The notes below the pieces were generated by a model. That model saw only the letters and a list, made by a program, of their open reading frames with translations, was not told the origin of the DNA and searched no databases. Made by a program: the position numbers and the translations under genes. Shown here in pieces: positions 32,180-39,649 of a stretch of 51,228 nucleotides of DNA (positions within the stretch are counted from its first letter, which is position 1; each line of letters starts with the position of its first letter). The stretch is from an uncultured Planctomycetaceae bacterium (GTDB lineage Bacteria > Planctomycetota > Planctomycetia > Pirellulales > JAEUIK01), in contig CAZBWM010000002.1 of NCBI GenBank assembly GCA_964495375.1, forward strand, positions 137,780 to 189,007, given 5' to 3'.

Positions 32180-33310
32180 ATGCGGCGCCAAATCTACCTC
32201 GATTTCAATGGCTCAACGCCGATCGCACGAGAAGTCCTCGTAGCGATGCAACCGCACATGGTTGCCAGTTTCGGCAACCCGTCGAGCGGTCACTGGGCCG
32301 CCCAGCCGGCTCACGATGCGGTCGAGCGGGCTCGCGGGCAAGTCGCGGCGCTGATCGGTTGCCAAGCGACCGAAGTCACCTTCACGTCCGGCGGAACTGA
32401 AGCCAACAACCAGGCCTTGAAAGGTGTCTGCTGGGCGAAGAAAGATAGCGTTGCCAAGCCACATTTCGTCGCCTCGGCAATCGAGCATCCAGCGATCCTG
32501 GCCCCACTGCGGTTCCTTGAGCGCCTCGGCGCTGAGGTAACGATCGTCGGTGTTGACCGATTCGGATGCGTCGATCCGGATGATATCCGCCGCGTGATAC
32601 GGGCCAATACAGTGCTCGTCTCCGTGATGCATGCCAACAACGAAGTCGGCACGATTCAGCCCATCGCCGAGATCGGTGCGATTTCCCGTGACCGCGGCGT
32701 GCTGTTTCACACGGACGCGGCACAGAGCCTCGGCAAGATCGCGGTCGACGTGGATGCCTTGCAAGTCGATCTGCTGTCGATCGCCGGCCACAAGCTCTAT
32801 GCGCCCAAAGGAGTTGGCGCTCTCTATGTCCGTGAAGGTACGGGTCTGGAGAGCTTGTTGCACGGTGGCAACCACGAGGCAGGTCGCCGAGCCGGGACAG
32901 AGAGTGCCTTGCTCACCGCGGGACTCGGCGCCGCGTGCGAGGTGAGTCGGCATTGGCTCGCGAGCGAGAGCATCCTGAAGCTGCGAGAGCTGTTTTGGGG
33001 CTTGCTACAGGAGAGCTGCGGAGACGCCGTGGTGCTCAACGGTCATCCAACGCAAAGATTGCCCAATACGCTCAACGTCAGCTTTGTCGGATGCGATGGT
33101 GGTGCGTTACTGGCGCGGTTGGAGGAAGTTGCCGCGTCGACTGGCTCGGCATGCCACTCCGGGGACACGAGCGGAAGCCCGGTGCTGGCCGCAATGGGCG
33201 TAAGTCCGCAGGTGGCAGCCGGCGCGATCCGCTTCAGCCTCGGCCGATCAACCAGCGAGGATGAGATTCGCGACGTCGTTACGCGACTGCGAGGCGCACT
33301 TTCCAGCTAA
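32180..33310 (+). CDS. cysteine desulfurase (class V aminotransferase, IscS/NifS-like); possible selenocysteine lyase partner of SelD
   Basis: RRQIYLDFNGSTP...TSGGTEANN...HTDAAQSLGKI...SIAGHKLYAPKGVGALYV includes the PLP-Lys motif and the active-site Cys loop (GSACHSG). Confidence 0.85.
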   Translation: MRRQIYLDFNGSTPIAREVLVAMQPHMVASFGNPSSGHWAAQPAHDAVERARGQVAALIGCQATEVTFTSGGTEANNQALKGVCWAKKDSVAKPHFVASAIEHPAILAPLRFLERLGAEVTIVGVDRFGCVDPDDIRRVIRANTVLVSVMHANNEVGTIQPIAEIGAISRDRGVLFHTDAAQSLGKIAVDVDALQVDLLSIAGHKLYAPKGVGALYVREGTGLESLLHGGNHEAGRRAGTESALLTAGLGAACEVSRHWLASESILKLRELFWGLLQESCGDAVVLNGHPTQRLPNTLNVSFVGCDGGALLARLEEVAASTGSACHSGDTSGSPVLAAMGVSPQVAAGAIRFSLGRSTSEDEIRDVVTRLRGALSS

Positions 33311-33435
33311 CGAACCCGCGGAGCGCGGCGGGGCTGTGGCGCGCTGACGAAAGCTAGCCGGAGCATTTTATTCGCTGGCATAAAGCTGCGTCGCAACTCC
33401 GCGCCAGGTTGCTCACAACACCAAACGGCAGGTTG

Positions 33436-34536
33436 TTATGCCCCGTCCGTCGTTAGTGTGTGGAGCCGCTCGCGGGCAACGCGATACAGTTCGCTGTCGG
33501 TTGGGGCCGAGGTGACCACTTCGCCGAGTAGTTGCTTGGCCTTGTCGGGGGCGACTTTCGCCAGCCGCTCGGCCCGCTCAAACGTTTTGTGGCAGGCCCG
33601 CAAGTGGCGGCAGCGTTCGGCGGCCGCGACCTCGGTTTTGTCCCGCTTGAGCGCGGTCAGCCGCTTCTGGGCCAATTCGGCCGAGGGGGCGGGCGAAAGC
33701 TTGACTGCCTGCTCGTAGACCAAAAACGCGCAGCACGTCTGATCGTCCTTCTCGTGCTGCTGGCCAAGCTGCCACAACCGCGCCGCCTCCGGCTCGTTAA
33801 GCACCAGGGCGTATTGCGGGCTGCGACGCAATTTGACCAGGCGCCTACGCAGTTCGGGCCCGATACGAGGGACGTCGTCATAGGCCCACAGCAGTTTGTC
33901 GAATTCTTCGAAGCAACTTAGCACGACGGCGTTAGGATCGTCGGGCTTCGCGCCGGTCGCGGGCGGCGCCGGTTGTTGTTCGCCGGGTCCGGCCACTGGG
34001 GTGTCGTCTTCAAGGCCAGGAATCGCGATCGCGTCGCGGTGGTAGCGCGATTTGGAGCCGGTCGACCCCGGGGCAGCGGACTTCGACTTCGAACCAGCCG
34101 CCGGAACTGCCGGCGCGCTGGCCGACGTGGCATCGGCTAGCCGCGTTTCAATATCGTCGAACTTCTGGCGGGCTTCGTCCTGTAAGGCGGTGAGCGCCTG
34201 ACGTGCGGCGGCCGCCTGCTCGGGCGCGTCCTTATTCAACGCGACGCGCGTGTACAGCGTCACCGCTTTGCGAATCAGTCCGGACTTTTGTGCCGACTCG
34301 GCCATGGCCAAGCGCGCCTTGGCATCATCGGTGATGGCCAGGATCGCGGCTTGTTCCGCCTCCCAGGCCATTTGCATGGCCAGCATGGCAGCTTCACGAC
34401 GGGCCAAGGTGGCAGCGCTAACGCCCCCCCCGGGGGCACAGCCTGCAGCGCCTCACAAGCCCACCGCTGGCTTCATGTCAACCAGCGTCAAACCGGCGGT
34501 CAGAACGACCGTGAAGAATCTTGTGCGACGATGCAT
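33436..34536 (-). CDS. hypothetical exported helical/TPR-like protein interrupted by one in-frame TGA (candidate selenoprotein or pseudogene)
   Basis: ATG at 34536 encodes the signal peptide MHRRTRFFTVVLTAGLTLVDMKPAVGL. An in-frame TGA follows at 34455..34453. The same frame then continues GAAGCAPGGGVSAATLARREAAMLAMQ... for 323 aa. A C8G5 homopolymer and a strong hairpin lie 15-35 nt downstream of the UGA. Confidence 0.5.
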
Positions 34537-34899
34537 CGTGATCCCCTCCGTCGCTGAATATTAAAAGCGTTTGTGGCACCGCCAAGTTTATCTGAGGGTA
34601 CCAAACGCTCGATAGCAACGATTGGTAGTCTACGGATGGGCGTTGCCCGCTGCAAGCTGAAGATGGGCAAGCGAACCGCTAATTTGGAGTCTGGTTCGTT
34701 TTTCGGCCCGTTAGCGTCAATTTTGCGTTACGCACATCGACCGAATGCCGGGAGACCGGCCCCCAACTCAATACGCGGCAGGGCTTGTTTTGCGGTGTTT
34801 GCAGCGGCTCGCTCTTTGGCCGACACTGATGTCGAGGCGAATTCTCACCGCGCCGGGAACATCCGTGCCGCGAACGTCCGTCCTGAAAGTGTTGTGGCG

Positions 34900-37976: not shown

Positions 37977-38049
37977 CAGGCCAGCCGCGCCGAGTCGCCT
38001 GCTATAATTGGACAGATGCGAAAGCGGCTCTGGAAGGTTGGGACCGGAC

Positions 38050-39474
38050 ATGTCCAAGGAGAAACATCGCCTGGCAAATTTGGTGGATGTGAATCCCTAT
38101 CGCCGCCTGCCTTCGGTTAACGAACTGGCAGATGCTCCCGCTTTGGCCCATTGGGCGCCGCGACTGCGCCGTGAAGTAGTCGTGGCGGCGGCGCGCCAGG
38201 TTCTCGCGCAATGCCGCCAGGAAATCACTGTCGAGAACGGACAGGCCAACGCTTCGCTCGAGCAACTTGTCAGCCGAGTTGAGCAACATCTGGAGCGGGT
38301 CCAGCGTCCGTACCTCCAGGAAGTGATCAACGGCACGGGCATTCTGATCCACACAGGGTTGGGCCGCGCACCGTTGTCGAGCCGCGCTCTGGACGCGATT
38401 GCGCAGGCTTCCGCCGGCTATACCCCCCTGGAGCTGAATTTGACCAGTGGCGAGCGGGGGCAACGCGCGGAGATCGTCCGCGGGCAGCTTTGTGCGCTCA
38501 CGGGGGCCGAGAGCGCCACGGTAGTGAACAACAATTCCGCAGCGCTCTTGATCGCCTTGGGCACGCTGGCGGCCGCGAAGCAGGTGATCGTCTCGCGCGG
38601 CGAGCTGATCGAAATCGGTGGCAGCTTCCGCCTGCCCGATGTCATGGCCGCCAGCGGCGCGCAATTGCGGGAAGTCGGCACGACGAACAAGACGCGGGCG
38701 GCAGACTACGCGGCGGCCATCAATGAATCGACCGGCGCCCTACTCAAGGTGCATCCCTCGAACTATCAAATCACAGGGTACACGCAATCGGTTTCTATAG
38801 ATGATCTTGTCTCCTTGGGTCGGAAACACAAACTGCCGGTAATCCATGACATCGGCTCGGGCGCGCTGTTCGACATGACGGCGCTCGGGCTAGGCAACGA
38901 ACCCGATGCCAGGACATCGATAGACGCGGGAGCCGATTTGGTTTTATTCAGCGGCGACAAGCTGATCGGCGGACCGCAGGCTGGCTTGATTGTTGGCAGT
39001 CGAAAGTACATCGCGCAAATCGAGCACAATCCGCTGATGCGAGCCCTGCGTGTTGATAAGCTCACGCTCGCCGCGCTGTCGGCTACACTTGAGGCGCTGG
39101 GCAATCCGCAACAAGCAATCCGCGAGCTGCCCTTGTGGACAATGGCCACGACATCAACGGCTGAACTCCAGCGACGCGCCGAGCACCTTGCCGCGGAGCT
39201 GCGATCGCGAAGCACAGGTTTCAGGATCGACGTCACCTCAACGACGGCCTACCTGGGTGGTGGATCACTTCCCGGTCGAGCCTTGGTGAGCGTCGCCATT
39301 ACCCTCGGTGGTGGTCCGATCTCTGAAAACGCGTTGGCAAGACGCTTGCGGATGGGGATTCCGGCCGTTGTCGGACGATTGCAGAGCAGTTGCTTGGTGA
39401 TCGACTTGCGTGCGGTGCTGCCGCGACAAGATGAGGGGCTCGTCGGCGCCCTGGTTGCCGCGTCGCAAGTGTAG
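38050..39474 (+). CDS. selA: L-seryl-tRNA(Sec) selenium transferase
   Basis: VINGTGILIHTGLGRAPL...TPLELNLTSGERGQR matches the SelA core (E. coli VINLTGTVLHTNLGRA...YDLDDGRGHR). PLP-lysine region FSGDKLIGGPQAG. Confidence 0.9.
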   Translation: MSKEKHRLANLVDVNPYRRLPSVNELADAPALAHWAPRLRREVVVAAARQVLAQCRQEITVENGQANASLEQLVSRVEQHLERVQRPYLQEVINGTGILIHTGLGRAPLSSRALDAIAQASAGYTPLELNLTSGERGQRAEIVRGQLCALTGAESATVVNNNSAALLIALGTLAAAKQVIVSRGELIEIGGSFRLPDVMAASGAQLREVGTTNKTRAADYAAAINESTGALLKVHPSNYQITGYTQSVSIDDLVSLGRKHKLPVIHDIGSGALFDMTALGLGNEPDARTSIDAGADLVLFSGDKLIGGPQAGLIVGSRKYIAQIEHNPLMRALRVDKLTLAALSATLEALGNPQQAIRELPLWTMATTSTAELQRRAEHLAAELRSRSTGFRIDVTSTTAYLGGGSLPGRALVSVAITLGGGPISENALARRLRMGIPAVVGRLQSSCLVIDLRAVLPRQDEGLVGALVAASQV

Positions 39475-39552
39475 TTCTAGGTTCCTTGCCATTGCCTAAA
39501 ATAAGACTGGCAAAGTTGAGTGGTGTGATTGGGTCCACTGGTTGAACTATAA

Positions 39553-39649
39553 GGGAGTGTCAGTACGCCTGGTGGCGGCCGCGGGCTTCAAACCCGTTGT
39601 GGGGTCTGTCAAACAAACCCTAGGTGGGTTCGATTCCCATCCACTCCCG
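39553..39649 (+). tRNA. selC: tRNA-Sec (selC, anticodon UCA)
   Basis: Lies 78 nt after selA. 8-bp acceptor GGGAGTGT/CCACTCCC with one terminal mismatch. Anticodon stem GCGGG/CCCGT with loop CTTCAAA (UCA). Long variable arm GGGGT...ACCCT. T-arm GTGGG-TTCGATT-CCCAT. ~97 nt. Confidence 0.7.

What the first reader, a model, noticed from the sequence alone, without database searches (positions are those of the whole stretch)
32180..39649. Compact selenium-utilisation locus: cysteine desulfurase, UGA gene, selD, selB, selA, tRNA-Sec
All four core Sec-decoding components are contiguous. tRNA-Sec lies immediately 3' of selA. A NifS/IscS-like desulfurase, plausibly a Se-delivering Sec lyase, lies at the 5' side. 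SelD is the Cys type (AGCAAK rather than Sec). Both flanks are GC-poor and coding-poor, about 50% GC at 31480-32130 and again at 39700-39960 after tRNA-Sec. This suggests the locus may be a horizontally acquired module.
Basis: partly seen in the sequence, partly recalled or inferred. Interest (0 to 1): 0.6.

Follow-up and report, generated by a model that had tools for sequence, protein, structure and literature searches.

The report
Selenocysteine operon beside a new selenoprotein
This planctomycete DNA carries a complete, intact set of genes for inserting selenocysteine into proteins. The unnamed "UGA gene" next to them appears to encode a previously uncatalogued family of exported selenium-containing proteins.

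Summary
An IscS/NifS-like cysteine desulfurase, Cys-type selD, selB, selA and tRNA-Sec all lie at 32.1-39.65 kb. All are intact; SelD, SelB, SelA and tRNA-Sec score above curated cut-offs, the desulfurase only above Pfam's.

The "UGA gene" is real but sits on the minus strand (34536..33436), divergent from selD. It has a Shine-Dalgarno site, an ATG, a signal peptide, an in-frame TGA at codon 28, and then GAAGCAPGGG followed by about 330 further residues.

Nine distinct homologues examined at DNA level, from six separately sampled lineages (about 36-99% identity to the window protein or to the P0041 query), keep the TGA at the same position. At least four others have Cys there, in a C-G-x3-C motif. 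A hairpin 18-22 nt after the UGA meets the published bacterial SECIS constraints in 8 of 9 Sec forms. It shows compensatory changes at all three wobble positions of its 5' arm, and it is absent from the Cys forms.

No Pfam or NCBIfam model matches, including the curated selenoprotein models. The AlphaFold model is a generic TPR-like helical repeat. I read this as a new planctomycete selenoprotein family.

The horizontal-transfer idea is not supported by composition: GC and tetranucleotide usage match the neighbouring DNA, and the flanks are 53-57% GC rather than about 50%. However, relatives share only this 7.5-kb block, with unrelated flanks. A selenium-delivery role for the desulfurase is unproven.

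The parts
32138..33310 (+). IscS/NifS-like group I cysteine desulfurase. The ORF opens at GTG 32138; the likely start is ATG 32180, giving 376 aa. It carries the PLP lysine (AGHKLYAPKG) and the catalytic Cys loop (STGSACHSG).
   Evidence: The best NCBIfam hit is NifS at 416.6 bits, below its cut-off of 530.75. SclA scores 103 against a cut-off of 525. The gene caller in L004 gives 376 aa.
33436..34536 (-). Candidate selenoprotein gene of 366 codons plus a stop. It begins with a Shine-Dalgarno site (GGAGGGG), ATG 34536 and a signal peptide, MHRRTRFFTVVLTAGLTLVDMKPAVGL. Then come Sec (TGA), the motif GAAGCAPGGG, two TPR-like helical domains and a disordered linker. Gene callers start it after the TGA (316 aa).
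34453..34455 (-). In-frame TGA at codon 28, read as selenocysteine.
   Evidence: It is conserved in 9 distinct homologues examined at DNA level and replaced by TGC/TGT (Cys) in others.
34417..34442 (-). SECIS-like hairpin. The core is 34439..34421 (GUGCCCCC-GGG-GGGGGCGU). The GGG apical loop at 34431..34429 begins 21 nt after the UGA. It is embedded in the Cys-Ala-Pro-Gly-Gly-Gly codons.
34537..34899 (.). 363-nt divergent intergenic region between the selenoprotein gene and selD. It is 56.7% GC and presumably holds both promoters.
   Evidence: It is not conserved with L003. No consensus promoter was found.
34900..35961 (+). selD, selenophosphate synthetase, Cys type (RAGCAAK), 353 aa counted from ATG 34900.
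   Evidence: The NCBIfam alignment starts at residue 115-118 of the longer ORF. Similarity to L003 starts at 34924.
36054..37976 (+). selB, the Sec-specific elongation factor, 640 aa. It has the GTPase motifs ([18 protein letters not shown]) and the C-terminal winged-helix domains that bind SECIS.
38008..39474 (+). selA, selenocysteine synthase. It is 488 aa from TTG 38008, or 474 aa from the ATG used by the gene callers. The PLP-lysine motif is FSGDKLIGGPQAG.
39553..39650 (+). selC, tRNA-Sec, anticodon UCA, with a long variable arm.

Best explanation
The region is the native selenocysteine-decoding locus of a Pirellulales-type planctomycete: selD-selB-selA-selC in one direction, with one of its client genes transcribed divergently from selD.

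The pathway below follows established knowledge of the bacterial Sec system. SelD (Cys type) makes selenophosphate. SelA converts Ser-tRNA-Sec to Sec-tRNA-Sec. SelB delivers it to a UGA that is followed by a SECIS hairpin.

The client gene (34536..33436, minus strand) has such a UGA at codon 28 and a hairpin 21 nt downstream. Its product would be an exported protein of about 340 residues. Sec would sit at or next to the mature N-terminus in a U-G-x3-C-A-P-G motif, on a flexible arm. Two TPR-like helical domains follow, and the second carries invariant CC and C-x5-C cysteines.

The family is new to the curated catalogues and seems to be mostly in the Sec form.

Shown here:
- gene identities and intactness;
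- conservation of the TGA;
- Sec/Cys pairing;
- the hairpin and its covariation;
- the absence of matches to known families.

Inferred:
- actual Sec insertion;
- export and the cleavage site;
- a redox or metal-handling role for the U...C pair (low confidence);
- any role of the neighbouring IscS/NifS-like desulfurase in supplying selenium.
For: Machinery:
- NCBIfam equivalog scores are above the curated cut-offs for SelD, SelB and SelA.
- tRNA-Sec is found by two methods.
- The catalytic motifs are present.
- TGA is an ordinary stop for 6 of 29 window genes, so the code is not reassigned.

Selenoprotein:
- The same frame is open on both sides of the TGA, with an SD+ATG and a signal-peptide-like N-terminus.
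- The TGA and N-terminus are conserved in L004, L005 and L003. Synonymous changes occur on both sides: GGC GCT GCA GGC TGT GCC becomes GGC GCG GCG GGT TGC GCC. L003 has a frame-preserving 3-nt deletion just after the TGA.
- Five more divergent members (L009, L011-L014) have a signal peptide, then TGA, then G-x3-C-A-P-G. For P0041 I predicted a TGA two codons upstream of the called start, and it was found there.
- Cys forms have one continuous ORF: P0007, P0008, P0025/L010 and L008 (C-G-x3-C).

SECIS:
- 8 of 9 Sec forms have an uninterrupted hairpin of 6-9 bp. The loop is 3-7 nt with G in its first two positions. Spacing from the UGA is 18-22 nt, and dG is -10.3 to -15.6 kcal/mol. This meets the constraints quoted in PMC13188914.
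- Only 0.6% of the 1216 TGA trinucleotides in the window do as well.
- The Cys forms fail.
- Pairs covary at the three wobble positions of the 5' arm: C-G/U-A; C-G/G-C/U-G; C-G/A-U/G-C.

Novelty:
- No Pfam or NCBIfam hit to the full-length protein, even at E<=10.
- No PDB sequence relative.
- Every cluster member looked up either carries no name or is named 'hypothetical protein'.
Against: - There is no experimental evidence of selenium incorporation.
- The hairpin's free energy is not exceptional against dinucleotide shuffles of this GC-rich stretch (z=0.63).
- The 7-codon run without synonymous change over the hairpin is only weakly significant on its own.
- L014's stem is interrupted.
- Whether the distant Sec-form organisms (L009, L011-L014) own Sec machinery is unknown, because the contigs are short.
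- An unnamed 'hypothetical' selenoprotein candidate in planctomycete P1 (PMC4807772, Table S9) could be the same family. I could not compare sequences.
Confidence: 0.85

Rival explanations
1. The TGA is a true stop. On this reading, a 27-codon upstream ORF (a leader peptide or a decayed N-terminus) is followed by an independent cytoplasmic protein starting at TTG 34407 or ATG 34386, as the gene callers assumed.
For: All automatic gene calls start downstream of the TGA. In-frame start codons exist downstream.
Against: - The 15-20 codons between the TGA and the called start are conserved at protein level, with only synonymous changes, and contain no in-frame start codon.
- A 3-nt indel there keeps the frame.
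- The Cys forms are single ORFs running through the same position.
- Nine lineages keep TGA specifically, never TAA or TAG.
Confidence: 0.05
2. The 7.5-kb block (desulfurase, selenoprotein gene, selDBA, tRNA-Sec) is a horizontally transferred or otherwise mobile 'selenium island'.
For: - Window and L004 (91.6% nt identity) are colinear only over 32163-39689.
- L007 (89.7%) breaks at the same left boundary.
- The flanks of L004 and L007 also differ from each other.
- No similarity exists outside the block, even at protein level.
- The block ends at a tRNA gene, a classic integration site. In L003, phage-like genes follow tRNA-Sec.
Against: - GC (61.4% against 61.0% and 60.8%) and tetranucleotide usage (distance 0.0109, correlation 0.975, among the closest 7.5-kb windows) match the surrounding DNA.
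- No integrase or transposase was seen in the annotated genes of the window.
- No convincing flanking direct repeats were found.
- Neighbouring genes are ordinary chromosomal genes.
- In L003 the desulfurase is not part of the block.
- The sel genes and the selenoprotein gene diverge in step (71-74% nt identity to L003), as expected for vertical descent.
- Loss of synteny around a functionally coupled cluster can produce the same picture.
Confidence: 0.2
3. The desulfurase is a dedicated selenium-delivery enzyme (a selenocysteine lyase) feeding SelD.
For: - It is adjacent to the sel genes in the window, L004 and L007.
- NifS-like enzymes and Sec lyases are among the proposed selenium donors to SelD (PMC13188914).
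- It has the PLP lysine and the catalytic Cys.
Against: - It is convergent with the selenoprotein gene and is not in the selDBA transcription unit.
- It falls below the curated cut-offs for every named subfamily. The SclA Sec-lyase model scores 103 bits against 525. The selD-linked EF2568 family, TIGR01977, scores 153 against 377.
- It is absent next to the sel block in L003, where an ankyrin-repeat gene takes its place.
Confidence: 0.25

Closest known systems
Canonical bacterial Sec-decoding system (E. coli selA, selB, selC, selD)
   Same: The same four components are present, with equivalog-level scores and catalytic motifs. The SECIS lies in the coding region directly after the UGA. In the L009 member the apical loop is GGUC, 21 nt after the UGA.
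   Different: All four components sit in one compact array, selD-selB-selA-selC. In Proteobacteria the usual arrangement is selA-selB-selC in one operon and selD-ybbB in another (PMC4807772 supplementary text). SelD here has Cys, not Sec.
Rhodopirellula-like planctomycete 'P2' Sec operon (Kim et al. 2016, PMC4807772)
   Same: It is a planctomycete with selA, selB and selD clustered in an operon-like arrangement that the authors described as unusual.
   Different: The P2 order is selB-unknown(transglutaminase-like)-selA-selD, with selC elsewhere. Here the order is selD-selB-selA-selC. There is no transglutaminase-like gene, and a selenoprotein gene and a desulfurase lie alongside.
Selenoprotein gene placed beside the sel operon (for example fdhA in Proteobacteria)
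   Same: A client selenoprotein gene is physically linked to the decoding genes. This has been proposed to help maintain the trait (PMC4807772).
   Different: The client here is not a formate dehydrogenase but an uncharacterised exported TPR-like protein. The linkage holds only in the window/L004/L003 clade and not in L005, L009 or L010-L014.
Short-motif selenoprotein families in the 2026 catalogue (LULAxC TsoA NF045695; UGSC protein NF041046; DUF1573 'UGC'; hypothetical proteins DG, DW and DF)
   Same: Sec is paired with a nearby Cys in a short motif. The proteins are of unknown function and were predicted from conserved TGA, Cys homologues and SECIS.
   Different: No NCBIfam or Pfam model of any of these matches, even at E<=10. 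The motif here is U-G-x3-C-A-P-G, placed directly after a signal peptide and followed by TPR-like helical domains rather than a thioredoxin-like fold. The DG, DW and DF families come from Desulfobacterota.
TPR-like helical repeat proteins (CpoB, BepA TPR domain, MamA, NlpI)
   Different: No Pfam TPR model matches. The invariant CC and C-x5-C cysteines and the N-terminal U/C-x4-C arm have no counterpart in those proteins.

Membership tests
Bacterial Sec-decoding machinery | SelA (L-seryl-tRNA(Sec) selenium transferase) with its PLP lysine | tested here: met
   TIGR00474 scores 543.9 bits against a cut-off of 267.9. The FSGDKLIGGPQAG motif is present.
Bacterial Sec-decoding machinery | SelB with an EF-Tu-like GTPase domain and C-terminal winged-helix SECIS-binding domains | tested here: met
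   TIGR00475 scores 359.2 bits against 242.25. Pfam finds GTP_EFTU, Beta-barrel_SelB, SelB-wing_2 and SelB-wing_3. The G motifs are present.
Bacterial Sec-decoding machinery | SelD with the (U/C)xxK selenium-binding loop | tested here: met
   TIGR00476 scores 382.5 bits against 125. The loop reads GCAAK.
Bacterial Sec-decoding machinery | tRNA-Sec with a UCA anticodon and a long variable arm | tested here: met
   ARAGORN calls tRNA-SeC (tca). RF01852 scores 69.1 bits against 47.
Bacterial selenoprotein gene | In-frame UGA conserved among orthologues, with coding conservation on both sides | tested here: met
   Nine distinct DNA sequences keep the TGA at the same aligned position. Synonymous substitutions and a frame-preserving indel flank it.
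Bacterial selenoprotein gene | Homologues with Cys aligned to the UGA position | tested here: met
   P0007, P0008, P0025/L010 and L008 have C-G-x3-C where the Sec forms have U-G-x3-C.
Bacterial selenoprotein gene | bSECIS: apical loop of 3-9 nt with G in its first two positions, stem of at least 4 bp, 16-37 nt from the UGA, dG <= -7.5 kcal/mol (PMC13188914, Fig. 2) | tested here: met
   Met by 8 of 9 Sec forms with uninterrupted stems (spacing 18-22 nt, dG -10.3 to -15.6). L014's stem is interrupted. Both Cys forms fail. The background rate is 0.6% of window TGAs. Compensatory pairs occur at three wobble positions.
Bacterial selenoprotein gene | Demonstrated selenium incorporation | not testable with these tools
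   This needs 75Se labelling or mass spectrometry.
Any catalogued selenoprotein family (NCBIfam or Pfam models listed in PMC13188914, Table 1) | Match to the family's profile model | tested here: not met
   No NCBIfam release 20 hit to the full-length window or L009 proteins (U replaced by C) at E<=10, apart from chance hits to MamA and CadR. No Pfam hit either.
Selenocysteine lyase or NifS/IscS equivalogs (for the desulfurase) | Score above the curated family cut-off | tested here: not met
   NifS 416.6 against 530.75. IscS 349.7 against 643.2. DndA 346.8 against 480. SclA 103.2 against 525. TIGR01977 153.2 against 377. Only the general class-V aminotransferase / group I desulfurase features are met.
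Genomic island / horizontally acquired module | Atypical base composition relative to the host DNA | tested here: not met
   GC 0.614 against 0.610 and 0.608. Tetranucleotide distance 0.0109, among the lowest in the window.
Genomic island / horizontally acquired module | Mobility genes or flanking direct repeats | tested here: not met
   No integrase or transposase among the annotated genes. Only weak, chance-level repeats were found.
Genomic island / horizontally acquired module | The block is bounded by a tRNA gene and has different neighbours in close relatives | tested here: met
   Colinearity with L004 and L007 is limited to 32163-39689. The flanks are unrelated at both DNA and protein level.
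Bacterial lipoprotein (Sec or Cys as the lipidated +1 residue) | Lipobox [LVI][ASTVI][GAS] immediately before the Cys/Sec | tested here: not met
   The window has V-G-L before U, L004 has V-G-M, and P0007 has A-A-Q before C. The second Cys is preceded by G-A-L in L003. Some members (L008, L-A-A-C) would fit, so the feature is not a family property.

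The most novel reading that the evidence does not exclude
The UGxxxCAPG proteins are a planctomycete-specific, predominantly Sec-form family of exported proteins. On this reading, a selenocysteine at the extreme mature N-terminus forms a mobile selenenylsulfide or metal-binding hook. The hook would work with the invariant CC / C-x5-C site of the TPR-like domain. Their placement back-to-back with selD in one clade would reflect a role in periplasmic selenium (or other chalcogen or metal) capture or redox relay that feeds the Sec pathway. 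That would make them an extracytoplasmic step of selenium metabolism not described before.
Probability: 0.12. Interest if true: 0.75.

Novelty: new member of a known kind. Interest (0 to 1): 0.5.

Why it matters
The Sec-decoding locus itself is textbook. The value lies in the neighbouring gene.

- It adds a well-supported new family to the roughly 119 catalogued prokaryotic selenoprotein families.
- It comes from a phylum (Planctomycetota) that the catalogues barely cover.
- It has a fold (TPR-like, not thioredoxin-like) and a location (exported, with Sec next to the signal-peptide cleavage site) that are unusual for selenoproteins.
- Every automatic annotation inspected truncates these genes at the TGA. 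Most of the 136 cluster representatives in public data therefore probably lack their signal peptide and active-site motif.
- If Sec forms really outnumber Cys forms, the family is an exception to the rule that Cys homologues are far more abundant. It would then be a useful case for asking why Sec is retained.

Tried and rejected
1. Single-sequence folding as proof of a SECIS. The energy is not better than shuffles in this GC-rich DNA. I relied instead on the cross-lineage position, the published constraints, the background rate and covariation.
2. Using the run of codons without synonymous change over the hairpin as a stand-alone statistic. About 0.5 such runs are expected by chance.
3. A lipoprotein (lipobox) reading of either the U or the second Cys. 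It is inconsistent across members.
4. A Tat signal. The pattern RR-x-R-F-F does not fit the consensus well. I did not pursue it.
5. A c-type haem site at C-x5-C-H. The His is replaced in several members (Q, N, D, S), and the spacing is not a known haem motif.
6. Looking for att-like repeats or mobility genes around the block. None were found.
7. Profile search of the word-indexed protein database with a 30-sequence alignment. It returned only 7 proteins, because the candidate list saturated.
8. Foldseek against AFDB. The library was not available.
9. The GTDB genome scan found only one locus (L006), identical to L003.
10. The other in-frame TGA candidates in the window. The kinase TGA at 42815 has no SECIS-like hairpin and replaces an expected Gly. 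The rest are shadow ORFs or short.
11. An Rfam search at a permissive threshold over 31.0-40.3 kb found nothing besides tRNA-Sec.
12. The promoter and terminator scan was uninformative.

Full report
**What is there.**

- Class-V aminotransferase / group I cysteine desulfurase: ORF 32138-33310, likely ATG at 32180.
- selD: effective start at ATG 34900, end at 35961.
- selB: 36054-37976.
- selA: 38008-39474.
- tRNA-Sec: 39553-39650, 78 nt after selA.

SelD, SelB and SelA score well above the curated equivalog cut-offs: 382/125, 359/242 and 544/268 bits. Their catalytic motifs are intact: GCAAK in Sel[19 protein letters not shown] in SelB, and FSGDK in SelA. SelD is the Cys type, as stated. Nothing is disrupted.

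**The 'UGA gene'.** The gene between the desulfurase and selD lies on the minus strand, divergent from selD and convergent with the desulfurase.

Gene callers start it at residue 51 and give 316 aa. Reading further upstream in the same frame gives the following:

- a GGAGGGG Shine-Dalgarno site;
- ATG at 34536;
- a signal-peptide-like MHRRTRFFTVVLTAGLTLVDMKPAVGL;
- TGA at 34455-34453;
- GAAGCAPGGGVSAATLARRE... continuing to the stop at 33436.

TGA is a normal stop for 6 of 29 genes in the window, so the code is not reassigned.

**Comparative evidence.** The closest homologues are L004 (94% aa), L005 (75%) and L003, which is the same as L006 (71%, a Pirellulales MAG, GCA_050251235.1).

- All keep the ATG, the signal peptide and the TGA.
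- The six codons after the TGA differ between the window and L005 only by synonymous changes.
- L003 has a 3-nt deletion there that preserves the frame.

A metagenome scan and an exhaustive profile search showed a family of 136 representatives at 50% clustering, 120 of them with E<1e-10. In five further divergent members examined at DNA level (L009, L011-L014), the same architecture recurs: signal peptide, TGA, then G-x3-C-A-P-G. For P0041, the called start 'VHGCAPG' led me to predict a TGA two codons upstream, and it was found there.

Conversely, P0007, P0008, P0025 (L010) and L008 are uninterrupted ORFs with Cys at that position, giving C-G-x3-C.

Most other representatives begin just downstream of the motif and lack a signal peptide. 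That is what TGA-truncated gene calls would look like, but I could not verify it without their DNA.

**SECIS.** I used the constraints summarised in PMC13188914.

- Eight of nine Sec forms have an uninterrupted 6-9 bp hairpin. The loop is 3-7 nt (GGG, GGA, GGU and GGGCU; 7-nt AGGUCUG in L009, which the MFE fold draws as a GGUC tetraloop). It begins 18-22 nt after the UGA, and dG is -10.3 to -15.6 kcal/mol.
- L014's stem is interrupted.
- The two Cys forms fail.
- Only 7 of 1216 TGA trinucleotides in the window (0.6%) do as well.

The 5' arm is formed by the Cys-Ala-Pro codons. At each of their wobble positions the partner base changes in step: C-G/U-A; C-G/G-C/U-G; C-G/A-U/G-C.

Two weaker indicators are recorded as such. 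The fold energy is unexceptional against shuffles. The invariant 7-codon run over the hairpin is only suggestive.

**Is the family known?** The full-length protein (U replaced by C) hits no NCBIfam release-20 model at E<=10. That release contains the curated selenoprotein models listed in the 2026 catalogue of 119 families. It also hits no Pfam model and no PDB sequence. Every source either gives no name or calls members 'hypothetical protein'.

The nearest motif analogues are TsoA (LULAxC), the UGSC protein and the DUF1573 'UGC' family. They are unrelated in sequence.

One caveat remains. Kim et al. (PMC4807772, Table S9) list an unnamed hypothetical selenoprotein candidate in a planctomycete. 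I could not compare it.

**Structure and function.** An AlphaFold model of the post-Sec part has mean pLDDT 75 and two confident domains.

- It is all-helical.
- The N-terminal 16 residues and a linker of about 57 residues are disordered.

The C-terminal domain carries invariant C-C and a near-invariant C-x5-C. Applying the -3/-1 rule by eye places the signal-peptidase cleavage one residue before U/C in most members. This is inference, with no predictor available.

I therefore propose an exported protein with a selenenylsulfide-forming or metal-binding U-x4-C arm. The confidence in that function is low.

No gene neighbour is conserved across the family. Only the window/L004/L003 clade has it beside the sel genes.

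**Desulfurase.** It has the PLP lysine and the catalytic Cys, but it falls below every curated subfamily cut-off, including the SclA Sec lyase. It is not in the selDBA transcription unit, and it is replaced by an ankyrin-repeat gene in L003. A selenium-delivery role is plausible from the literature but is not supported here.

**Horizontal acquisition.**

- The locus is 61.4% GC, against 61.0% and 60.8% for the adjacent DNA.
- Its tetranucleotide profile is among the closest to the rest of the window.
- The flanks are 56.5% and 53.3% GC, ordinary for intergenic DNA in a 63% GC genome.
- No mobility genes or att-like repeats were found.

Nevertheless, L004 (91.6% nt identity) aligns with the window only over 32163-39689. 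L007 breaks at the same left edge. The three left flanks are mutually unrelated, even at protein level. The block thus behaves as a conserved unit in a changing neighbourhood. Whether that reflects mobility or synteny decay around a functionally coupled cluster cannot be decided from these contigs.

**Verdict.** The locus is an ordinary but complete Sec-decoding operon. The noteworthy result is that its neighbour is a strongly supported member of a previously uncatalogued, planctomycete-restricted selenoprotein family.

Noticed in passing
window 42813-42815 (minus strand), within the kinase gene 40089-43439: A WD40 Ser/Thr kinase is split by an in-frame TGA ('...ASVYCA*PTLAVWLAA...'), where by recollection (not tested here) such kinases usually have Gly. 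The same TGA is present in an independent assembly (L001, 100% identical). There is no SECIS-like hairpin (best -2.9 kcal/mol). It is probably a nonsense mutation or pseudogene, not a selenoprotein.
   Followed up: partly
L003 4761-4856 and L003 1-4443: ARAGORN missed the tRNA-Sec of the Pirellulales MAG. Rfam finds it at 69.5 bits, and it is 96% identical to the window's. Directly beyond it lie phage- or plasmid-like genes (DUF669, DnaB_C/AAA_25, HTH_3, RAMA). This suggests an element integrated next to tRNA-Sec in that genome.
   Followed up: partly
window 31448-31547; L004 9804-9904: A 100-nt stretch in the coding-poor spacer left of the desulfurase is 78% identical to a stretch in the otherwise unrelated left flank of L004. 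It is the only similarity outside the shared block. It folds into several hairpins. No Rfam match.
   Followed up: partly
window 50538-50600 and 50853-50928 (minus strand): The two tRNA finders disagree. ARAGORN calls tRNA-Arg(gcg) at 50853-50928, which Rfam scores only at threshold (29 bits, partial). Rfam finds a better partial tRNA match (52.8 bits, model positions 5-66) at 50538-50600, which ARAGORN does not report.
   Followed up: partly
protein P0103 (family representative, 448 aa): One family member is fused at its C-terminus to a region with a CASCH haem-binding motif, typical of planctomycete cytochrome c domains. This may hint at a redox context for the family.
   Followed up: no
window 33436-34407 product, residues C240/C241 and C281/C287 of the post-Sec numbering: CC and C-x5-C(H) are invariant or nearly so across 30 divergent family members, alongside PAPSA and VLNEP motifs. 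This may be a second redox or metal site in the C-terminal helical domain.
   Followed up: partly
window 5300-5436 (+): The C-terminal end of an ORF reads '...CLLCAEICEACAAECAKHPMNHCQRCARTCAEECRQL'. It is a Cys-rich helical repeat and was not examined.
   Followed up: no
window 32138-39474: All five protein genes of the locus end in TAA or TAG, while 6 of 29 genes in the window end in TGA. With so few genes this is not significant.
   Followed up: yes
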